DNA of 63,467 bases, counting the filler, from Collodictyon triciliatum (taxonomy: Eukaryota), in NCBI GenBank assembly GCA_043381765.1. It is 12 parts of 12 records of this genome, joined end to end, with 100 filler letters (N's around TTAATTAATTAA, not from the genome) between each part and the next. Parts side by side here need not be neighbours in the genome. Positions count along the whole stretch, not along the records: positions 36,568 to 42,571 come from JBHJMP010004790.1; 11 more parts are not named here. One strand, written 5' to 3'. The translations under genes and the position numbers were made by a program. Below are positions 1-42,480 of the stretch, piece by piece. The notes below the pieces were generated by a model. That model had not been told where the DNA came from. It was given only the letters and a program-made list of their open reading frames with translations, and searched no databases. Position 1 is the first letter of the stretch. Each line of letters opens with the position of its first letter.

Positions 1-5160
<5,160 letters not shown>

Positions 5161-6253: not shown

Positions 6254-12085
<5,832 letters not shown>

Positions 12086-12185
12086 NNNNNNNNNNNNNNN
12101 NNNNNNNNNNNNNNNNNNNNNNNNNNNNNTTAATTAATTAANNNNNNNNNNNNNNNNNNNNNNNNNNNNNNNNNNNNNNNNNNNN

Positions 12186-15100
12186 ACACTGATAGAGCCT
12201 GAATTAGGTGCATTTGTGTGGTCGTTGGGAGCAGATATATAGAGAAGGTTGTTGATGAATATAACTTTCCATCCAAACCCAGCCTTTGTTTTATCTGATA
12301 TGGAACGACTGAGGGACCATGTGTCTCTATTTCGGCGTAAGATGCTGACAGTTTCATAATTACGATCAGTCGGTCTATTGGCTATCGCAATCAGGTGGTC
12401 AGTCAGAAATGATAATTCAGACCCGAAAAATTCATTATCAATCTTTATGAATGAGTTGATTATGAAAGGTTGGGAGTTGCATACATCCTTATCATCAACA
12501 TAAAAGATGTAAACGATTCCCGAATTTGAAATAAGAGAAAAATCATAATGAGGAGAACCAACTGCCACGTAATTTCCTGCTATGCTTATAGCTTTTGAAA
12601 AACTCTTATCATTGCTATTTTTACCAGGTTTAATAGAGCATTTTTTTGTGAATGTCTCCGAATTATTATCCAACAAATACAAAACGACTACTCCTGTTGA
12701 GCCACCCTGTCTTTTCAAGTCTATTGCAGAAACAGCTAAAATGTTTTCATTCATTTGCATACCAAAGCCGAACTTCACATCCGAATTAAAAAAAGGATTT
12801 CTGATTTTACCTAAGAAAGAAAACTGATTTTCTATCCGGCGGTATATCAGAACATAGCCACCGTCACATAAATCCGGGGGTTTAATGCAGAAGGGAACAG
12901 ATATCAGAGCAAATTTGGAGGTAAGTAATAGTCTATATCCCATATTTTCTGACTTTGACGATTGCATTAAGTTAAGGTAATTATTCGCAGAGCCCACAAA
13001 ACTTGAATTTGACAAATTGCATGCTGATAACGACAAAAGACATTTTTTTGGGTCGCATATGTAAGAATCCTCATCGAATAAATTACCAACACCGCATTTC
13101 ACACATGAAGATATGCCAAACAATCCAAAATCCTGTGTAAATGTTCCTTTTGGACAAGCATAGCATGATTTGGAGTCTTTTTTTATTCCTTCTTTTTGAT
13201 AGAACCCTGGTGGACATAAGCTGCAAGATGAGCTTCTTTCTGAGCTATAACTTCCATTCGGACATGAAGTGCACGATGATTGGTTGAAAGAGCTAATTTT
13301 ATCGTTGAATGTTCCTGCTGAACATGGTGTGCATGATGCTTGACCATCTCTGTCATTCCAAGTACCTTGTGGACATTCAATACATGATATGTTTCCATAG
13401 GAGCCTGAGTTTGAATTGAATGTGCCTTTTGGACAGGCATAGCATGATTTGGAGTCTTTTTTTATTCCTTCTTTTTGATAGAACCCTGGTGGACATAAGC
13501 TGCAAGATGAACTTCTTTCTGAGCTATAACTTCCATTCGGACATGAAGTGCATGATGATTGATTGAAAGAGCCAATTTTATCGTTGAATGTTCCTGCTGG
13601 ACATGGTGTACATGATGCTTGACCATCTCCGTAAGTTCCAACAGGGCATTTTAAGCAAGAATCCGCACTAGTTGCTCCATAGGTGGTGCTATAAGTTCCG
13701 TTGGGACATATGAAACAATTGTTTTGACCTGGTAAATCGCTATATTTTCCAGGTGGACACAAATCACACACAAGTTTTCCTGAAACAGATGAGAATGTTC
13801 CTTGAGGGCAAGGTTGGCAGCTGCTTCTACTTGTTGATGCAACGTTCGGATTGAAAGAGCCAGCTGGACATTTATCGCAAGATATAGATTTTGTCCTGTT
13901 TGAGTATGTACCTGGGGAACATGGATTGCAGAATTGCTTTCCTCTCTCATCCATATAAAATCCCGCAGGACAATCAAAACAAGTTGATTTTCCATCGACA
14001 CTATTGTATGTACCTACTTCGCATTGAATACAGGACGACGAGCTAGTGCTCTTTCTAATAGAATTATATGTTCCAAAAGGACACATACTGCATTCAGATT
14101 GACCGTAATTGTTGTTGTATTGTCCTGGGGGGCATTTAAGGCAACTCCTTCTTCCCTCATCTATATTGTAAGTTCCTGGCTCACATGGATCACATAAAGC
14201 CTGTCCTTTTTTGTAATTGAACGTCCCTGGTCCACATGGTAGGCAATTTTCAATAGAAGTAGAACCATTTATAGGGTTATAAGTGCCAGCATCACAGGCT
14301 ATACAGGAGCTAGGGCTTACAGAGCCAATGGACGGGTTATATGTTCCAGCAGGACAGGAAATACAAGCTATTTGGCCAGTTGATGGGCTATAGGTTCCAG
14401 GTGCACATGAAATACAAGAACTAACACTAGAAGAACCATTTGATGGATTGTATGTGCCAGCTGCGCATGAAAGACAAGCATCAACACTTGTAGAACCCGT
14501 TGATGGATTGTATGTACCAGCTGCACATGAAAGACAAGCAGATTGACCAATAGATGGATTGTATGTTCCAGCTTCGCAAGAAAGACAAGCATCAATGCTC
14601 GTAGAACCGTTTAATGGATTATATGTACCAGCTGCACATGAAAGACAAGCAGACTGGCCAATAGATGGATTGTATGTTCCAGCTTCACAAGAAAGACAAG
14701 CTTCAACACTTGTAGAACCAGTTGATGGGTTGTATGTACCAGCTGCACATGAGAGACAAGCAGCTTGACCAGTTGATGGATTGTATGTACCAGTAGGGCA
14801 CAGAATGCAAGATGAAGTTCCTGCAGCACCATAGCTTCCATATGGGCATGACTGACAAGATTTTGATTCTAAATCATTAAACTGACCAAGAATGCATCGT
14901 AATTCAGGAACATTCCAGATTTTGATTGTATAATCACCACCACCAGAAACAATTTTCGAGCCATCAGGCGTAACAGCAACACTTGTAACCCAATAAGTAT
15001 GACCAGTCAATGTCCGAATCAAAGCTCCATCAGAAAGATTCCAGATTTTGATTGTTATATCCCTACCTCCAGAAACAATTTTTGAGCCATCAGGAGTTAC

Positions 15101-15924
15101 AGCAACACTATTAATCCAAACAGTATGACCAGTCAATGTGCGAATCAAAGCTCCATCAGAAAGATTCCAGATTTTGATTGTATTATCACCACCTCCAGAA
15201 ACAATTTTTGAGCCATCAGGAGTAACTACGACACTGAAAACATAACTTGTATGACCAGTCAATGTGCGAATCAAGGCTCCATCAGAAAGATTCCAGATTT
15301 TGATTGTATTATCAACACCTCCAGAGACGATTTTTGAGCCATCAGGAGTAACAGCAACACTCACAACATAACCAGCACCAGTCAATGTGCGAATCAAAGA
15401 TTCATCAGAAAGATTCCAGATTTTGATTGTATTATCATCACTTCCAGAAACAACTTTTGAGCCATCAGGAGTAACAGCAACATTTATAACCCATTTAGTA
15501 TGGCCACTTAACGTGCGAATCAAAGATCCATCAGAAAGGTTCCAGATTTTGATTGTATTATCGTAACTTCCAGAAACAATTTTTGAGCCATCAGGAGTAA
15601 CAGCAACACTGTAAACACTATCACTCAATGTGCGAATCAAAGCTCCATCAAAAAGATTCCAGATTTTGATTGTATTATCACCACTTCCAGAAACAATTTT
15701 TGAGCCATCCGGAGTAACAGCAACACTGGTAACAAAACCAGGAGTACCAATGGTGTAAACTTGGTCATCTTGCCCTTCAACAAGACATAATTGGCAGTGA
15801 AGTATCAATCCTGAAAATATATAATTAAAATTTTATGTAATTTGAAGTCAATAAAATTAAAACAAATAATTTGTAACTCACCCAATAGCAACAGAGCTGC
15901 AAAAGACTTTGAGTTCAATCTCAT
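12186..15924 (-). CDS. Secreted/cell-surface protein: signal peptide + 7 near-identical WD40 repeats + many Cys-rich GCC2_GCC3 (ephrin-receptor-like) repeats + FG-GAP (integrin-alpha-like) repeats; 3'-truncated
   Basis: Exon 1 15924-15882, GT-AG intron 15881-15811, then one long exon. The N-terminus MRLNSKSFAALLLLGLILHCQLCLVEG looks like a signal peptide. WD40: VxSVAVTPDGSKIVSGxxDNTIKIWN x7. Cys-rich: CxxCPAGTYNP repeats. FG-GAP: FSKAISIAGNYVAVGSPHYD..SGIVYIF and FGWKV..LYISAP..NSGSI. Confidence 0.9.
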
Positions 15925-34700: not shown

Positions 34701-36226
34701 TCTTATTCAGCGAACCTTCAAGTCATTGTATGATGGATCTCTTTTTCATATTTTTTATCTAAGTATATGTATTTGATCATAATTTTTATCGAAATACTTT
34801 GATTGGTAAAAATAGACTTGTTTGAGAAGACTTCCTTTCCATAACTAATGTAAGTAGTAACAATTAAATATACATATATAGGTTTATGATAAAGATAAAA
34901 TTAATGATGACATACTGGGTCGTTTTCAAGTACCTATTTCCAGTGTTGCATCACAGGAGGTAAAAAAAAAAAAAATCTTATTTATCATAGCAATTTTTAG
35001 GCTAATTTCACGGAAAGAAACAACCACTTTATTTTTATTTTACTTTATTACATTATTTATTGGGCATTTTCTTTCAGACAAAAACTCCAACATGGTTTGA
35101 TCTCACTTTGGATGACACAAACATTCCTCTTGGGCAAATTCTCGCATCATTTGAGCTCATACCAGAGGGTCAAAAGGTTTTTAATTTTCACTTGGATTCT
35201 AAACATAGGGATGAATGTATCTATTTAAAATGTAAAGTAATTAGGATTGATGTCTTTATTTTATTTTTTAGTCTCTGCTTCCTAATCAGGATATTGCTCC
35301 ACCAACGAAGGCAAGTTCAATACTTAAACAGCTACTTTTATTGTTCATATTTGAAATAGATTTATTAGTATATGTAATCATATTATGCCTTTTTTTTTTG
35401 CATTATTTATTGCATCGTTTTTTAATGAACAAAAAAAATAGAACATATTTCTAATATATAGTTATTGACACTATCACTGTATTGATTAACATTCGTGAAA
35501 TATGAATCAGCCATACAAGGTGGAGGTTACTGTAGTCGGACTGCGCAACCTACAGCCCATCGGATTAATGCCTATACTCAAACCATGCATCGAATTTGAT
35601 GTTGGAGATAGAGCCAAAAAAGGCCGCTTCAAAACAGAGCGCAGCTGTCGCCCATCACGAAGAAATCCGAATTATATGAAAGTAGGCCACTCTTGTCATT
35701 AAATAATATCGTGTTTTTTCTGTGACAAATAGAACAGAACATGCTATATAATATAATTTTACGTCATATTGAACACTTACTGTATTATTTGAAGGAGCGC
35801 AGTCTTTTATATTCATTTTATTTTTTTAGTGCTATTAGTGTGTTTTGCTAGTTTTGTTATTGTTATTATTAATGTTTTCATTATTGATATCGACAGACAT
35901 TCACCATGCACGTTGATATGCCCACTCATAAAGCATTTGCTCCGTCCTTGACTGTGCGCGTAAGTTTTTTTTTCTTTTATTACTCCCTATATGCAGCGAA
36001 TCCTCTAATCCTAACACTTTTCAATGGTCCCATTCAAGGTAAAAAAAATCCCAATTTTTTTTAAAATAAAAGAAATATACAAGGTTACCGACGACCGCGG
36101 ACTGGGATTGTTCAACTCAGTGCTCGCTAGTGGTTCAATTAAATTGGAAGCCTACGCTCAGTATGACTCCCAGGGCATTTTACTCCAAGAGAGCGAGCAG
36201 GTGGACCCAGTTCCCGTCTCTGCTGG
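30814..36226 (+). CDS. Ferlin-family multi-C2-domain protein (about 20 exons, truncated at both ends)
   Basis: C2 domains DISGTSDPVCIVQAF, LEIHIAENLPKVD, LYQGRDLIAMDDDGFSDPYIEVKFG and VTVVGLRNLQP; FerI motif GYVKVSVTVLGPGDE; the exons traced join in frame via GT-AG introns. Confidence 0.85.
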
Positions 36227-36567
36227 TAATATCGACCAATTTTTATTTGTGATAGAGTATTAACTGATATTGATATGAAACTCTTATTTATATCTTGGTC
36301 TACATATTTTGTCATTTTTTCATTTCGCCATCTTGAGTATTTAACTAATTTCGCTCCTTTGTTCCTTTTGGCAATTCTTTTGTTTCCAAAAAAAATTATG
36401 TCTCCTTTCTTATCCTCTTGTTTTTGCTTTTGCTTTTGCTTTTGCTTTTGCTTTTGCTTTTGCTTTTNNNNNNNNNNNNNNNNNNNNNNNNNNNNNNNNN
36501 NNNNNNNNNNNTTAATTAATTAANNNNNNNNNNNNNNNNNNNNNNNNNNNNNNNNNNNNNNNNNNNN

Positions 36568-36670
<103 letters not shown>

Positions 36671-36749
36671 GACTGGCTGGCTGACTGACTGACTGACTGA
36701 CTGACTGACTGACTCAACTAATTTTGAATATTTTTTTATTTATATTCAA

Positions 36750-36869
36750 CTAGAAGGGATATACTAATCTTTCGATTGGTTAACCTGGTGCGCTAGTATC
36801 CAAGGTCTCACCACTTGTTTCACAGAGGTTGTGTAATGATGAAGGCTGCCAGGAAAGACCCGACAGCCT
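36750..36869 (-). ncRNA. Candidate Fanzor omegaRNA scaffold
   Basis: Four tandem stem-loops between RuvC-III and the element end. G-U pairs in stems 1-3 work only on the Fanzor sense strand. Position matches known TnpB/Fanzor right-end RNAs. Confidence 0.55.
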
Positions 36870-36899
36870 CTTTTTTAGAGGAAGGTGTATGCATTTTTT

Positions 36900-38812
36900 G
36901 AAGGTTAAAAGACCTTTCTTGAGTATATTTTTAGCGCTGTTAAGTCCCTTGTCAAGAATACACTTTGTTTGCTTTCTGAGTGATTGCTTCTTTACATATG
37001 AGACAACTATACACCATCTTTTTTTTTTGATTTTCCTTTTGGTTTCATATAACCCAGTTCTTTTTCGCAGTTGCAGCACATCTTGGAGGTTCTAAATTCA
37101 TTTACATTAACTGTTTCAAAACGTTTGGATAGTATTTTTCGTAATCCTCTTCCGATTGTTGGCATAATATGTTTCATCGGAGATTTTCTGCTCCAGTCTC
37201 CTTACGCCAGTACAACATCCTCGCCAAATGCCTTTTCGATTTGGTCCATAAATAATTGTTCACTTCTTTTTTGTATTAACATACTGTCTCCATCTCATCT
37301 TTCGAAAAGTTACCTGCCCATAAAATCTGGATAATTCTATCTGGTATCTTGATTTCATAGATAAATATTCTCGAAATTTTTCATAATCGACCATGCATGA
37401 TTTATGTTTACTCGGTTCTGTCTCTAAATCGATTAAACATACTCTTGATGTCTCAAACCGCTGTTTGTCTTCAAAAGTCCTGCGACAAAAAGAAATAGCA
37501 CTTTGTAGACCTGTTGCCATATATATCCCTGAAGCATTGTACTTTTCTTTTTTTCTCGCGCAAGAGTATTTTGTGTTTTTTAAGAGATTTGCTATCATGT
37601 CTTGTTTGGTGTGCCGTGTAACGTAATATCTTACCTGTCTCATCCACCATGTAAACCAAATTAAACTTGCCAGCTGTAACAACTTTCTTTTTTGTCGCTA
37701 ATAAAGATAACTGCTCTTCGGAAAGTTCATCTATATAAACATATTATTAGGCCTTTATTGATGAATTTGAATTTTGAATTTGAAATACCTTTCTTTTCAA
37801 ACAATAATGACACCGCCAAGCTGTTTGTTTGTATCATATATTTAAAATTGTAGACTCTTTGATGAAAGGCCCTCTTCTTCATTTCAAAGAACTCATCCCA
37901 TAGGGTCTCTTTGCACCCTGATATATTCTTCAGTAATAATGTTTTTACAGATAATAGCAATATATCTATCAAACATGCAGTATCTAGAGTAATATGGCAT
38001 GGTATATTGTTCGTTCTTATAGAGATTGGTTGAAACAGTTTTGGTTCCAGTTTCCTCAAAAATGCGATTAATTTATATCATACATGGAATGTATTTGTTT
38101 GTATTGACTTTGACGTCATATTCGATACCCTTTACAATATCGCTGGGAATCATACGATTCAAATGCGTTGTAGCCCATTCTTTATATTGTTACGGTATGT
38201 CGAGATTCTTGAAGATGGCTTTTTTTAAGTTACGTAGCTCTGCCTTTTTTTAGCTTTCGTAATATTCTCATCTTTAGGAACTGTTTGATTTATAAAGCGC
38301 ATTAACCTCTTTACAGAATGTTCCTTATCTTATTATGATAAGCTGTTAACATTTGCTTCGCCAAGTACGGTAATACATGAGACAGTCCAACCAACGGAAA
38401 GTCTTCTCGGGACAAAAGGAATCGAAAATCATTGAGATAAAAAGTCATCATGTCATCTCTCATTTCTGGTTTTTTTTTTAACCTTGCGGGTCTATCTTGT
38501 GAAACTATTCCGACAGTCTTTAAAGCATACAAAAAAAAGTTTTCATCTATTGTTGGGAGTTGTTATGATTTCAATATGTAACATCTTGCAAACAGATAAG
38601 TGTCGGTAACCAAATTATGACGCAATAAAACCGTATCGTTGATCCATCCTGCACAAAATTGAAAGGAAGAATAAAAAAAAAAAAACCGTATCGTTGATTT
38701 CGTCATAATCATCCGCATTCTTTACAATCGACTTTAGAGATGTTTTCACATTTCGATAGTGTGATTTTACAGACTTTATAATCTCAGACTCAGGGCGTTT
38801 TCTTTTGTTCAT
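36900..38812 (-). pseudogene. Fanzor1 (eukaryotic TnpB-like RuvC nuclease) pseudogene with multiple stops, frameshifts and insertions
   Basis: Intronless fragments in the expected order: KTSLKSIV..INDTVLLRHNLV; HITLDTACLIDIL; FKYMIQTNSLAVSLLF; RuvC-I YIDEL..KKVVTAGKFNLVYM..LRYT; FRKMRWRQY; LA*GDWS; RuvC-II VNEFRTSKMCCNC; zinc finger; RuvC-III FLTRD(L)NSAKNI. Confidence 0.85.
38627..38698 (+). mobile_element. Severely 5'-truncated non-LTR retroposon insertion (38 bp, poly(A) tail) with 17-bp TSD, disrupting the Fanzor ORF
   Basis: TSD AAAACCGTATCGTTGAT at 38627-38643 and 38682-38698. Removing the insert plus one TSD restores the reading EINDTV-LLRHNLVTDTYLF. Confidence 0.85.
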
Positions 38813-40057
38813 CTGAAAGTCTTTGTTTTACTTTTTCCTTACAAACTAGCAATTTTTCAATTTCAATAAAACTTTAGTCAATCAATATCAATTGAATAAA
38901 TAAAAAAAACAACTGCACAAAATCAATTCATGTAAAATTAAGCATCTACCAAGACTCTAAAAATGTGCGAATTGTGGCAATCAGACACACAAAGTTTTTT
39001 TTTAGAGGTAATTTGAGACAAAACACTGAGAGCCAATTCGGCGAGTTCGAAAGGACGGCCATATAGCCATTGCGACTGAGAGTCAACATATCGGCTCCAA
39101 ACAACATGATTACCGCCACAAGTGTGGATAGTATTTCTTTTTTGAAATGCATGTTTGGTGACAGGTTTATAGGGTGGGCTCTGTCTGGGCCAAAACAAGG
39201 GCTTGTTTGTATTTTTTTGAATTTTTGATATTACATAAATGAAAAAAAATAAATTGATTACAGGAATAGAATGAGAGTACAGAGTATTTTTTTAAACTTA
39301 TTATATACTAATTATACTATTATATTATTCAGGCTGTTTCTTGGATTCACCGAAGCTCTTGCTTTTGTCAATCCAGATTTAATTCGATGGTTGTCTGTAC
39401 AATAAATTGCTACATATGTGGGTACACTTTCGTTGTATTAAAAGTGTTGTGGTTTGAAAGGGATAGAACCAATCTCGTCACAACCTTTGCAATGATGGTT
39501 ATCCATTTACAGGCTGAATGAGATAGAAGAAAAAGAATGAAAAATGAAAAATGAAAAATGAATCAGAGCAACTTATACTGAGCACTATAATCATACTGAT
39601 GTTGCTGCTCGTGGGTCGATGGCTTGAGCCTGCGGCCTTCGATTATCAATTCAACACAAATCATCTCATTCGACTTTTCTTCCTGGTACGAGAAACCAAA
39701 CGAGCGCGCTCTCTGTATCTCGATACAAAACGTATTTCTTAAGCAAGTTCTTCCCTGAGGGAGCGAGCCAATCGAAAGTTTCCAGATATGCAATACGATG
39801 TAACTTCCAAAAATAAAGCCGAGAAATTGGACAGAGAAGTATCTATATTGTAATAAATTTACTATACACTCCATGTAATCAGTACAAAATACGACTATTT
39901 TATTGAATTAGTAGCAAAATTTCTCTTCACCCGAAACATATTTATTTGAAAAGAAGGTTGGCACGTCATCCACGCCCACGCCTTCTCCCAGCCAGTCGGT
40001 CTGCAAACACCAGGAAGCCCCCAAGGGAACCCCACCCCAGGACAGATCACCGCACCC

Positions 40058-42480
40058 ATGGATCCACGCCTGCTAGGCCTCCTCAATGGTCACTCCACTA
40101 CAAAAGCTCGATCAGAACAAGCCGCACATCTTAAGGACCTAGAAAAGCTCGTTGAAGACGCAACGACTGTGCCGCTCGAGAGACGCACGTGGCTGTACCT
40201 CGCTGGACGCAGCCTCGTCTCCGTTCCGCTGGGAGTGTGGGAATTGTTAGGCCTGAAGAGGCTTTGGTTGTCCAATAACCGCCTGCTGGCCTTGGCCCCA
40301 GAGATCTCGCGCTTGACAGGCCTCAAGGAATTGAGCGTAGGTGACAACCAGCTGTCATCTCTGCCGCCAGAAATCTCGAGTTTGGTAGGAATGACTGGGC
40401 TTAATATCCACAACAACGAGCTGTCTTTTCTGCCGCCAGAAATCTCGCTACTCACGGGTCTTCAAGAACTGAATGCCTGTGCCAATAAGCTCTCATTCTT
40501 GCCTCCACAAATATCGGCATTGACCGCCCTAGTGTATCTGAGCGTGGATGGTAACCCAGTGAGTAATATACAATTTTGCTGAACAATTCCGATGGCGTGC
40601 ACATTGAGTATACGCTCTATTGGCACATGTGATGCTTCTTTATCTTTTTTTTCTTTTCACCAATATTGTCACCCACAGTTGGCGGAGCTACCCGCGCAAA
40701 TCACATCACTTGTGAACTTGAGGAAGCTCTTCATCCAAGATACCAGAGGACAGATTAATGTCAAGAGGGCACCGCGAGCCATATCCATCCTCCCGTGTTG
40801 GGCGAACACCAAAGACACCTGGGGAGAATTATCTGTAGCAGATGCCCTAAGGAAGATCCAGTTCTTTGATATTGTCAGTCTCTTATGTTTGCAACAGAAA
40901 TGTCCTATTGACGAAAAAGAGTAGCTATGCACTAAATTTTTTTGTTTCTTTGTTTTGTTTTTTTTTTTTTTTGTTTTGTTTTAAAGCAGGCTACCTTGGT
41001 TAACAAGGCCCATGAGGCTCCAAAAGTTGACAAATCCAAAATTACCCCTGTAGAGAGCACACACCCCATTCGAGAATCCCTAAATCAGATGACTACAGAA
41101 TACCAGCAGATTGACAATGTTATTATTGGGTCAAAGGTTATAGGAAAAGGTGGTCAAGGCACTGTTTTTGAAGGAACATACGCTGGAAAGCCAGTTGCCA
41201 TCAAAAAGGTAGATCCCAACAAACAGAGAGATGCAATTCAGGAAGTCTTGCTGGCCAAGAAAGTTGCACACAAAAGCATTATTGACATCCTTGGGACATT
41301 CATCAGCCAAGATAATTTTTTCTGCATTGTGATGCCGCTGGCTTCTGAATCTCTCAAAGGTTACATCGAGCGACTCGGAAGAATCAGCACGAAACAAACA
41401 ATTCTGTTTGCCACTCAGATTTGCGACGCGTTATCACACTGCATTTCGCACACACCCAAGGAACCGCTCCACCACTGCGATCTCAAAACAGAAAATATTC
41501 TGATCATAGATGGCGTGGCAAAAGTAGCCGACTTTGGTTTGGCGATCACTCGCATGAAGACCGGAATGTCCTCGCTCCCAAATGCCACCAAATATGTCCC
41601 TGATGATGTTGCAGTAGGAGGAACAGCACATTGGCAAGGCCCTGAAATCTATGACGAAGTATGCAAAAGTGAACACAGGCTGTTAAATGACGGGTCAGAT
41701 AATATCGGGTTTCGTGGAGAACGCAGCGACGTGTACGCTTTTGGTCTTGTAGTGTGGTCCATGGCGATGGGGCAATATCCTTTCACCGGGGTTTACCCAA
41801 TTGAGGTTTCCCAGAGAGTCATAAAGGGCCAGAGGCCCGAGATTTCAGTGGATGTCTCTCATGCTTTGCGGCAACTGATTCGCGCCTGCTGGTCCCAGAA
41901 TTACAAGAGTCGCCCCACATTCTCAAAAATCATGGATTACCTTACCTACGTGACCCAGAATCCCACTGCTGTACAGGTCGACCTGGAACGGCAGCTTCCT
42001 CTGCAGTATCCCCCTATCAAAGAGATGTACCACGGGGAGCTCTACGAATACCTCACTGATAAAGGGGTTGCAAAGGAGGAGGCGTGGAAGCTGACGCATC
42101 GCAGGGCGAATGGGGAGCTCCTTTTGAACAAGACGGTGGAATCGTTGATGGAGGACTACAATATTGCTCCGCTGGTTTCTCAGTTCATCGTGAGCCTGGT
42201 GCAGAATTCGCAGACAATCCATTCCCCTGTTGCCCAAACACCAAGAGGCATGCCGAGGGTAACTTCAAAGCATGTGCGAGATATGGACACCGCAGAACTG
42301 ACAGACTACCTGACAGGCAAAGCAAACCCTTTGCTGATCGAGGCTTGCAAGAACAACGAGATTGGAGGGAGAGAGTTTGTCATCCTGACAGAGCAAGACT
42401 TGAAAGAGTTGGTACCCCGGTTCGTGGGTGTGCACATCCGCGCCGCGATGAGGCTTGTTGAAGAGGCTGGTCACTCTTAG
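40058..42480 (+). CDS. LRR - TKL-type non-RD protein kinase - two SAM-like domains (exons 40058-40558, 40679-40873, 40990-42480; may extend further 5')
   Basis: LRRs LxxLPPEISxLxxL; kinase motifs GKGGQG, VAIKK, HCDLKTEN, DFG, GGTAHWQGPE, SDVYAFG; two C-terminal SAM-like repeats (ELYEYL..ANGELLL, ELTDYL..IGGREFVILTEQDLKEL); both GT-AG introns are phase 0. Confidence 0.85.

What the first reader, a model, noticed from the sequence alone, without database searches (positions are those of the whole stretch)
36750..38812. Fanzor1 (eukaryotic RNA-guided nuclease) relic in a protist genome
Seen: in an intron-dense genome, ~2 kb of intronless - strand fragments join into a TnpB/Fanzor-like protein. 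RuvC-I reads KKVVTAGKFNLVYM where the usual DPGK lacks DP, so the first catalytic Asp is missing. RuvC-II (NEFRTSKMCCNC), a zinc finger and RuvC-III (TRD(L)NSAKNI) follow. The N-terminal KTSLKSI..INDTV and HITLDT..L motifs resemble Fanzor1 of protists and giant viruses. Known: Fanzors are omegaRNA-guided DNA nucleases carried by eukaryotic transposons. Inference: this copy is dead, but intact relatives in this genome could be an uncharacterised Fanzor family. The ORF track shows it only as scattered short ORFs.
Basis: partly seen in the sequence, partly recalled or inferred. Interest (0 to 1): 0.9.

Follow-up and report, generated by a model that had tools for sequence, protein, structure and literature searches.

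The report
Dead Fanzor1 nuclease gene copy
This stretch is a broken, non-functional copy of a Fanzor1 gene (a eukaryotic RNA-guided DNA-cutting enzyme carried by mobile DNA), a known kind of element whose intact relatives occur in environmental samples and on giant-virus contigs.

Summary
On the minus strand, 38812..36820 is one colinear, full-length but wrecked Fanzor1 gene. Against the closest intact relative (P0170, 648 aa, metagenomic) it covers residues 1-642 at 63% identity, with 11 frame shifts and 6 in-frame TAA stops. It reads T-A where relatives have the RuvC-I Asp-Pro. One 95-aa window fragment alone hits only Fanzor structures in the PDB (Parasitella Fanzor1, E 9.9e-10). P0170 matches GtFz1, PpFz1 and SpuFz1 by sequence (E 2e-28 to 4e-23). 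Its model matches them by fold (TM 0.76/0.81 to SpuFz1; Fanzor2, TnpB and Cas12 lie far behind).

Outside its own small clade, the nearest relatives sit on giant-virus contigs. There they lie inside a 3.3-kb transposon with 32-nt inverted ends and a DDE_3 transposase. No transposase, inverted ends or guide-RNA signal remain in the window.

Contigs of four public runs hold many 85-99% alike pieces. Every contig laid there reads sense codons at three of the window's stops, so the family is multi-copy elsewhere.

Verdict: a real but ordinary pseudogene, a new member of a known kind. Interest is low.

The parts
36820..38812 (-). Whole Fanzor1 pseudogene, from start ATG (38812..38810) to last stop (36822..36820)
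   Evidence: Frameshift-aware alignment to P0170 covers 38812..36832 = residues 1-642 of 648, with 394 of 626 aligned residues identical. Alignment to P0002 covers 38806..36798 = residues 2-625, with 266 of 599 identical.
38627..38681 (-). 55-nt direct duplication or insertion in the N-terminal coding part. It repeats INDTV and shifts the frame.
   Evidence: family D8 (20-nt copies, 55 nt apart); shift at 38698 plus 18 extra codons. table 5: a joint that skips 55 nt (38626->38682) in 2 contigs of X2 and 1 of X3.
38563..38565 (-). In-frame TAA, aligned to K67 of P0170
38190..38192 (-). In-frame TAA, aligned to E191 of P0170
   Evidence: In one search, other copies read a Glu codon here: X1 9 contigs (depth 100.2 of 100.2), X2 8 (127 of 137.8), X3 1, X4 5.
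38073..38075 (-). In-frame TAA, aligned to Y230 of P0170
   Evidence: In one search, every contig laid there reads a Tyr codon: X1 7, X2 4, X3 2, X4 2.
37744..37749 (-). Two adjacent in-frame TAA codons in the variable linker before RuvC-I
37648..37683 (-). RuvC-I remnant VVTAGKFNLVYM. The catalytic Asp is absent (relatives read VGVDPGKFNLVYM).
   Evidence: In alignment A2 of 64 full-length relatives, the Asp is kept in at least 90% and the next Pro is invariant.
37190..37207 (-). A-stop-GDWS block. TAA at 37204..37202 stands where relatives have Tyr (AYGDWS).
   Evidence: In one search, every contig laid there reads a Tyr codon: X1 15, X2 13, X3 4, X4 4.
37067..37102 (-). NEFRTSKMCCNC: the conserved Glu (E555 of P0170) and the first Cys pair of the zinc ribbon
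   Evidence: aligned to DEFRTSSFCPKC of Parasitella Fanzor1. Glu invariant in 64 of 64. PF07282, E 0.0098, below the cut-off.
36994..37005 (-). Second Cys pair (CLIC), in a different frame from the first pair
36921..36952 (-). RuvC-III: TRD (36952..36944), then a frame shift, then NSAKNIL (36941..36921)
   Evidence: The Asp (D604 of P0170) is invariant in 64 of 64 relatives.

Best explanation
This is a decayed, non-functional copy (pseudogene) of a Fanzor1 gene lying between two host genes.

Shown: the whole gene of about 650 codons is still traceable in order, from the basic N-terminus through the REC/WED part, RuvC-I, the GDWS block, the Glu-TSK motif, the zinc ribbon and RuvC-III. It is interrupted by 11 frame shifts and 6 TAA stops and has lost the RuvC-I Asp.

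Inferred from what is established for Fanzor1 (SpuFz1 structures; Saito 2023 and Jiang 2023, passages read): the ancestor was an omegaRNA-guided double-strand DNA endonuclease riding on a DNA transposon. Its guide RNA was encoded at the 3' end of the element.

Inferred from relatives: that transposon was probably of the IS630/Tc1-mariner type. The nearest relatives outside the window's own clade sit in a 3.3-kb element of that type on giant-virus contigs. After insertion the copy lost any transposase, ends and guide, and now drifts neutrally. It does nothing today.
For: -: the window fragment 37007-37294 gives four PDB hits at E<=10, all Fanzors (PpFz1 9.9e-10, SpuFz1 0.032, GtFz1 0.056, mimivirus L79 0.23).
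- two further fragments give weak hits in the same order along the protein (PpFz1 758-852, E 0.24; GtFz1 433-554, E 0.66).
- P0001 is 71% identical; tblastn E 5e-39; this is the only such locus in the window.
- colinear with P0170 residues 1-642, 394 of 626 identical, 11 shifts, 6 TAA.
- P0170 against the PDB gives GtFz1 2.1e-28, PpFz1 2.7e-24, SpuFz1 3.7e-23; the next hits are noise (myoglobin, E 0.38).
- P0002 against SpuFz1, E 9.2e-37 over residues 14-607.
- the P0170 model (pLDDT 87.9, pTM 0.86) matches SpuFz1 at TM 0.76/0.81, E 1.2e-27. The next non-Fanzor1 hit is Cas12o at 1.1e-6, Fanzor2 at 1.2e-4 and TnpB at 1.4e-3.
- Asp (at least 90%), Glu and Asp (both 64 of 64) are conserved in relatives.
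- the window read-through groups with P0170 and P0001 (SH-like support 99). Its next neighbours are L001 and L004 from giant-virus contigs.
- the viral element has 32-nt inverted ends and a DDE_3 transposase (E 1.3e-13).
- 20 of 85 related loci carry such a transposase.
- other copies read sense codons at three of the stops.
Against: - No reads from the window's own source were found (best share of words 0.10), so none of the lesions is verified against raw data.
- Several shifts lie in A or T runs, and the assembly has N gaps nearby, so some could be assembly errors.
- Pfam recognises nothing above its cut-off in any of the 10 window fragments, and nothing in P0170 or P0169.
- Two of the five fragments searched against the PDB gave no Fanzor hit at all. 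One of them is the fragment carrying RuvC-I.
- The transposon part is inferred only. The window has no transposase relic (best E 6.5), no viral-type inverted end, no convincing inverted repeat and no Rfam match.
- At three shift sites (38039, 38326, 36987) part or most of the contig depth in runs X1-X4 reads as the window does. These lesions may therefore be shared with other copies, or be alignment ambiguities.
Confidence: 0.93

Rival explanations
1. The gene is intact or nearly so. The apparent breaks are short introns plus assembly errors.
For: Neighbouring genes have GT..AG introns, and Fanzor genes are known to acquire introns (Jiang 2023, passage). Several shifts lie in homopolymer runs. 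The assembly has gaps 250 nt downstream. No source reads could be laid.
Against: The six TAA stops are substitutions, not indels. Two replace a conserved Tyr, and every contig laid at those two codons reads a Tyr codon there. The shifts are 1-2 nt offsets inside conserved blocks, for example HN|NIKEH and TRD|NSAKNI, which leaves no room for an intron. Two candidate GT..AG spans that I examined by eye contain sequence that aligns as protein to relatives: YVYIDEL to FHYVEDL, and GLQSAISF to DLQEAKSF. The RuvC-I Asp is also missing.
Confidence: 0.03
2. The relic is a fragment of an endogenised giant-virus genome, not a host transposon insertion.
For: Outside the window's own clade, the nearest relatives are on IMG/VR giant-virus contigs of 57-254 kb. 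Many of the 417 metagenomic relatives lie on contigs over 100 kb. One relative is named in UniRef as coming from a viral metagenome.
Against: The flanks are host-like genes with introns: an LRR-kinase 1.1 kb upstream and a WD40/Ephrin_rec_like gene further off. No other viral or transposase gene was seen within 36-40 kb. The GC content of the stretch equals that of the surrounding non-coding DNA. A scan of viral contigs with P0170 found nothing. Hundreds of alike contig pieces per run suggest a dispersed repeat.
Confidence: 0.06
3. It is a chance resemblance, or a different TnpB/Cas12-like family such as Fanzor2 or a prokaryotic TnpB contaminant.
For: The Pfam hit is only sub-threshold, and PF07282 is shared by all TnpB-like proteins.
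Against: E-values of 5e-39 and 9.9e-10 rule out chance. Fanzor2 and TnpB structures score far below Fanzor1 (1.2e-4 and 1.4e-3 against 1e-27). The relatives are 620-680 aa long, and the flanks are eukaryotic.
Confidence: 0.01

Closest known systems
Spizellomyces punctatus Fanzor1 (SpuFz1; PDB 8gkh, 9ceu-9cez)
   Same: The domain order and size are the same. P0002 aligns over residues 14-607 at E 9.2e-37. The P0170 model superposes at TM 0.76/0.81. It shares the DPxK RuvC-I motif, the GDWS block, the Glu-x-x-TS motif, the zinc ribbon and the RD-x-N RuvC-III motif.
   Different: Identity is only about 20% in the structural alignment. The window copy is broken and lacks the RuvC-I Asp. No guide RNA or transposon ends are identifiable here.
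Guillardia theta Fanzor1 and Parasitella parasitica Fanzor1 (PDB 9cer; 9cf0-9cf3)
   Same: These are the best sequence matches: to P0170 (GtFz1 2.1e-28, PpFz1 2.7e-24) and to the window's own C-terminal fragment (PpFz1 9.9e-10).
   Different: PpFz1 is longer; the solved chains listed have 722-726 residues. The window clade has its own insert of about 29 aa after RuvC-I, shared by P0170 and P0001 and absent from P0002.
Fanzor1 on Mariner/Tc1 transposons (Jiang et al. 2023, Sci Adv, PMC10530073; passages read)
   Same: The viral relatives L001-L004 carry Fanzor1 next to a divergent DDE_3/HTH transposase between 32-nt inverted ends. 20 of 85 related loci have such a transposase.
   Different: The window has no transposase and no ends. 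I could not assign a subfamily (1a-1d) because the paper's supplements are closed.
Fanzor2 and prokaryotic TnpB (for example ApmFz2 9b0l, ISDra2 TnpB 8h1j)
   Same: They share the RuvC and zinc-ribbon core and the guide-RNA mechanism.
   Different: The structural matches are much weaker (E 1.2e-4 and 1.4e-3, TM 0.21-0.34). These proteins are shorter and have different transposon partners.

Membership tests
Fanzor1 | Significant sequence homology to experimentally characterised Fanzor1 proteins | tested here: met
   Window fragment: PpFz1 E 9.9e-10. Relatives: SpuFz1 9.2e-37; GtFz1 2.1e-28.
Fanzor1 | Fanzor1 fold (WED/REC plus split RuvC plus zinc ribbon, as in SpuFz1) | tested here: met
   Tested on the intact relative P0170 only: pLDDT 87.9; SpuFz1 TM 0.76/0.81, E 1.2e-27. 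The window copy cannot be folded because it is broken.
Fanzor1 | Complete RuvC catalytic residues (Asp, Glu, Asp) | tested here: not met
   The window reads VVTAGKF where relatives read VGVDPGKF. The Glu (NEFRTSK) and the RuvC-III Asp (TRD) are kept. Relatives keep all three.
Fanzor1 | Rearranged RuvC-II: no Glu at the canonical place and an alternative Glu downstream (Jiang 2023, passage) | tested here: inconclusive
   The GDWS block is followed 35 residues later by the invariant Glu of NEFRTSK, which fits the description. I made no structural alignment to a canonical TnpB to fix the canonical position.
Fanzor1 | Zinc ribbon (TNB) with two Cys pairs | tested here: met
   The CCNC and CLIC motifs align with the CxxC pairs of relatives. 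PF07282 is sub-threshold in the window. It is hit in 7 of 8 relatives tested and passes the cut-off in 1 of 8.
Fanzor1 | Open reading frame able to give a protein | tested here: not met
   11 frame shifts and 6 TAA stops.
Fanzor1 | Guide (omega) RNA encoded at the 3' end, reaching the transposon's right end | tested here: inconclusive
   No Rfam match, no conserved 3' flank and no DNA of close relatives. A microsatellite and two N gaps start about 100 nt after the stop.
Fanzor1 | Association with a eukaryotic or viral transposon (ends and/or transposase) | tested here: not met
   In the window: no DDE_3 relic, no viral-type end, and only a 14-nt inverted repeat at chance level (I25). In relatives the feature is met in L001-L004 and in 20 of 85 loci.
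Fanzor1 | Eukaryotic or giant-virus host, with an N-terminal basic (NLS-like) stretch | tested here: inconclusive
   The flanks carry GT..AG introns. The N-terminus reads MNKRKRP. No NLS predictor was run.
Prokaryotic TnpB / Fanzor2 | About 400-480 aa, closest to TnpB, with IS200/605 or IS607 partners | tested here: not met
   Relatives are 620-680 aa. TnpB and Fanzor2 structures score E 1e-3 to 1e-4 against 1e-27 for Fanzor1.

The most novel reading that the evidence does not exclude
The relic marks a multi-copy Fanzor1 lineage resident in a freshwater eukaryote (the clade of window, P0170, P0001 and P0169). The lineage was exchanged recently with giant viruses, where its nearest relatives ride IS630/Tc1-mariner-type transposons. 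Intact members such as P0170 may still be active nucleases with an uncharacterised guide RNA and target-adjacent motif. Shared frame shifts among copies would mean that already-broken units kept being copied.
Probability: 0.3. Interest if true: 0.45.

Novelty: new member of a known kind. Interest (0 to 1): 0.2.

Why it matters
On its own it matters little. Fanzor1 genes are already known from protists, fungi, plants, arthropods and giant viruses, often in many copies per genome (Saito 2023; Jiang 2023, up to 122 copies; passages read). A dead copy adds only a locus.

Its use is as a pointer:
- It led to an intact 648-aa relative (P0170). That protein is only 46% identical to the next full-length protein in a 5.8-billion-protein collection, so this sub-clade is sparsely sampled.
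- It led to a clean example of a Fanzor1-carrying DDE_3 transposon on giant-virus contigs.

Both are ordinary candidates for nuclease characterisation and for studying the exchange of mobile DNA between viruses and hosts.

Tried and rejected
- **Whole genome.** None is held, so other copies in the assembly could not be counted.
- **Pfam on 10 window fragments.** Only sub-threshold PF07282; the other hits are noise.
- **PDB searches.** Fragments 37260-37697 and 37471-37743 gave no Fanzor hit.
- **Introns as an explanation for the breaks.** Two GT..AG candidates examined by eye (about 37771-37715 and about 37510-37480) were rejected, because the spans align as protein to relatives.
- **TAA read as a sense codon.** Rejected: the TAA codons align to K, E, Y and Y, and the frame shifts remain in any case.
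- **Transposon ends.** No viral-type inverted end in the window with up to 3 mismatches. The 14-nt inverted repeat 36766-36779 / 39768-39781 (I25) is at chance level, and by my reading it does not extend.
- **Transposase relic.** None.
- **Rfam.** No match in 35500-40000 at E<=1.
- **Viral-contig scan with P0170.** 36 stretches matched a pattern; none was confirmed.
- **Metagenome scan with P0001.** It did not return P0001's own contig; the best locus is 53% identical. No DNA of the closest clade was obtained.
- **Sequencing runs.** No RNA holder is listed, and no run holds even a fifth of the words. Expression and the reality of the lesions in the source remain untested.
- **Earlier notes of this scan.** None.
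- **First paper search.** Badly chosen terms; it gave nothing useful.
- **PF26935.1.** This is the precomputed label on all relatives. It is not in the local Pfam copy, so I never saw its description.
Full report
**What is there**

The window is AT-rich eukaryotic DNA (about 33% GC outside exons) with microsatellites and N gaps. On the minus strand between 38.8 and 36.8 kb there is no long ORF; the longest stop-to-stop frame is 145 aa. The three-frame translation nevertheless shows recognisable pieces in a fixed order. I list them by the window's own letters:
- an N-terminus MNKRKRP.. with ..KTSLKSI.. and ..INDTV;
- ..LPYLAKQMLTAYHN..;
- ..KLFQPISIRTNNIPCHITLDT..;
- ..VVTAGKFNLVYM..;
- ..RWRQYVNTKK..;
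- ..A*GDWS.. and ..NEFRTSKMCCNC..;
- ..CLICKE.. and ..TRD, then NSAKNIL.

**Is it more than chance, and what family is it?**

A 95-aa piece (37007-37294, with one TAA read as X) was searched against all PDB sequences. It returned four hits at E<=10, and all four are Fanzors:
- Parasitella Fanzor1, 9.9e-10;
- SpuFz1, 0.032;
- GtFz1, 0.056;
- mimivirus TnpB-like L79, 0.23.

Two other pieces gave weak hits in the same order along the protein: PpFz1 758-852 at E 0.24 and GtFz1 433-554 at E 0.66. Two pieces gave no Fanzor hit. Pfam gave only a sub-threshold PF07282 match (E 0.0098, 16.5 bits against a cut-off of 26.3).

The same 95-aa piece found P0001 in the 5.8-billion-protein collection. P0001 is a 223-aa metagenomic protein, 71% identical, E 9.6e-32. 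tblastn of P0001 against the whole window hits only this locus (E 5e-39 and 3e-27; everything elsewhere is E>=1.3).

**Relatives**

HMMER with P0001 against 1.84 billion representatives found 2142 proteins at E<=1e-3, 1005 at E<=1e-10 and 42 at E<=1e-30. The full-length ones are mostly 600-760 aa. A search with the RuvC-I fragment found P0170 (648 aa, intact) and P0169 (291 aa). P0170 sits in a cluster with P0172 (648 aa) and P0171 (160 aa).

P0170 is 82-84% identical to P0169 and P0001. The window read-through is 58-63% identical to all three.

In a FastTree tree of the C-terminal region (185 rows, 198 columns; local SH-like support only) the window groups with P0170 and P0001 at support 99. 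Its next neighbours by path length are L001, L004 and P0002. Beyond its own cluster, P0170's best full-length relative is only 46% identical (242 proteins at E<=1e-30 among 7037 candidates).

**Family membership of the relatives**

P0002 aligns to SpuFz1 over residues 14-607 at E 9.2e-37, to PpFz1 at 7.2e-34 and to GtFz1 at 7e-16. There are no other hits at E<=1.

P0170 hits GtFz1 at 2.1e-28, PpFz1 at 2.7e-24 and SpuFz1 at 3.7e-23. The only other rows are myoglobins at E 0.38-0.62.

An AlphaFold2 model of P0170, built from a 64-sequence alignment, has mean pLDDT 87.9 and pTM 0.86. Foldseek against the PDB ranks seven Fanzor1 chains first (SpuFz, PpFz, GtFz; E 1.2e-27 to 1.6e-23; TM to SpuFz 0.76/0.81). 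Then there is a gap to Cas12o at 1.1e-6, Fanzor2 at 1.2e-4 and TnpB at 1.4e-3.

In the 64-sequence alignment the RuvC-I Asp is kept in at least 90% of rows. The adjacent Pro, the Glu of the E-x-x-TS motif and the RuvC-III Asp are invariant. The relatives are therefore Fanzor1.

**State of the window copy**

I ran a frameshift-aware dynamic-programming alignment to P0170.
- It covers 38812..36832, equal to residues 1-642 of 648, with 394 of 626 aligned residues identical.
- It needs 11 frame shifts, near 38698, 38331, 38239, 38048, 37750, 37548, 37271, 37021, 36987, 36943 and 36908.
- It has 6 in-frame stops, all TAA: 38565, 38192, 38075, 37749, 37746 and 37204.
- The first shift is a 55-nt direct duplication (D8).
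- At RuvC-I the window reads V-VTAGKF against VGVDPGKF. The stretch is one residue shorter and the Asp is gone.

With P0002 as guide the picture is the same: 10 shifts, 6 stops, 266 of 599 identical.

I considered introns, because the neighbouring LRR gene has GT..AG, T-rich interruptions and Fanzor genes are reported to gain introns (Jiang 2023, passage). I rejected them for three reasons. The shifts are 1-2 nt offsets inside conserved blocks. The two longer GT..AG candidates contain sequence that aligns as protein to relatives. The stops are substitutions at conserved residues.

**Other copies**

No genome is held for this window, and no public run holds more than a tenth of the sampled words. 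I laid the contigs of four runs at >=85% likeness. Two are labelled with coded organisms A and B, with their kind guessed as RNA. Two are freshwater metagenomes. This gave 368, 383, 92 and 177 pieces; in X1, 58 are >=99% alike, 80 are 95-99%, 148 are 90-95% and 82 are under 90%. No piece spans the whole stretch. These are contigs, so the counts are sequence variants, not copy numbers.

Where the lesions are private to the window:
- At the stop 37204-37202, every contig laid there reads a Tyr codon (X1 15, X2 13, X3 4, X4 4).
- At 38075-38073, every contig laid there reads Tyr (7, 4, 2, 2).
- At 38192, they read Glu (X1 9 contigs, depth 100.2 of 100.2; X2 8, 127 of 137.8; X3 1; X4 5).
- At the shift near 37267, one base is absent in 9 contigs of X1 (217.1 of 281.4 depth), 8 of X2 (275.9 of 275.9) and 1 of X4.
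- The 55-nt duplication is absent in 3 contigs.

Against a simple 'only this copy is broken' picture:
- At 38039, only 60.3 of 162.6 (X1) and 42.9 of 153.6 (X2) of the depth differ from the window.
- At 36987, only 80.6 of 234.6 (X1) does.
- At 38326, 56.2 of 80.6 (X1) does.

So some lesions may be shared by other copies, or the alignments may be ambiguous. The other two stop sites were not among the rows shown (560 further rows were cut).

**Context in relatives**

P0002-like genes lie on IMG/VR giant-virus contigs of 57-254 kb: L001 at 88% identity, L002-L004 at 80% and L005 at 49%. L001 and L002-L004 share homology only over L001 3631-6952 (74% over 3354 nt). That stretch is bounded by 32-33-nt inverted repeats at 3637-3668 and 6921-6952.

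Inside it lie two genes:
- a divergent 346-aa ORF with DDE_3 (E 1.3e-13) and HTH_28 domains;
- the 634-aa Fanzor gene, whose stop is 15 nt from the right repeat.

The exact 32-nt end occurs only in these four contigs. Among 85 related loci, 20 carry a DDE_3-like ORF at E<=1e-5. Many of the loci are short, so this is a lower bound. This agrees with the published association of Fanzor1 with Mariner/Tc1 elements and giant viruses (Jiang 2023 and Saito 2023, passages).

**Context in the window**

The relic lies in about 4.5 kb of non-coding DNA. On one side is an ORF at 35006-35359 with no Pfam match. On the other is an LRR-kinase gene starting near 39950.

There is no transposase relic, no viral-type end, no convincing inverted repeat and no Rfam match. 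About 100 nt past the stop, (ACTG)n and (ACTT)n microsatellites begin at 36568-36714, followed by two 44-N gaps at 36468-36511 and 36524-36567. Any right end or guide-RNA region may therefore be lost or unassembled.

**Mechanism**

Shown: homology, colinearity, the lesions and the loss of the RuvC-I Asp.

Inferred from the solved and assayed Fanzor1 proteins: the ancestor was an omegaRNA-guided double-strand DNA endonuclease that helped its transposon persist. The present copy can give no such protein and has no recognisable guide or ends. It is a neutral relic.

**Verdict**

The thing is a new member of a known kind. The initial interest of 0.9 is not justified; I score it 0.2.

Supplementary tables of the two 2023 papers were closed. 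I could not check whether this clade or host is already listed there.

Noticed in passing
L001:3631-6952 (also L002-L004): A 3.3-kb transposon on giant-virus contigs. It has 32-33-nt terminal inverted repeats, a divergent 346-aa DDE_3/HTH_28 transposase and a 634-aa Fanzor1 gene whose stop lies 15 nt from the right repeat. Homology between the different viral contigs is confined to this unit.
   Followed up: partly
window 38600-38739: In all four runs the summed contig depth here is 4-10 times that of neighbouring bins. Many contigs match only about 38644-38682 and run on unlike the window on both sides (tables 2 and 7). The T-rich filler of the 55-nt duplication seems to occur in many other contexts.
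   Followed up: no
window 37540-37560; P0169 and P0001: Three copies (the window, P0169 and P0001) all lose or change frame near the same KEKKKY stretch, which is an A-rich run in the window. This suggests recurrent slippage or a shared lesion.
   Followed up: no
window 36468-36714: Two 44-N assembly gaps separated by TTAATTAAT, next to (ACTT)n and (ACTG)n arrays of about 37 units and a (TTGCTT)n array at 36418-36467. They lie directly downstream of the relic.
   Followed up: no
window 36766-36779 and 39768-39781: A 14-nt inverted repeat (13 of 14 complementary), 2988 nt apart, bracketing the relic. It is at chance level for 5 kb of AT-rich DNA, and by my reading of the sequence it does not extend.
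   Followed up: partly
window 12134-15832 (-): An uninterrupted 1232-aa frame with 7 WD40 repeats followed by 15 Ephrin_rec_like cysteine-rich repeats (Pfam E 2.9e-100). It runs into an N gap.
   Followed up: no
window 39950-42480 (+): An LRR - protein kinase gene in at least three exons, separated by GT..AG, T-rich introns of about 100-120 nt. It is the relic's upstream neighbour.
   Followed up: partly
proteins P0173-P0290: All listed relatives carry the precomputed label PF26935.1. That family is absent from the local Pfam copy, so I never saw its description. One relative is named 'Transposase' from a viral metagenome in UniRef.
   Followed up: no
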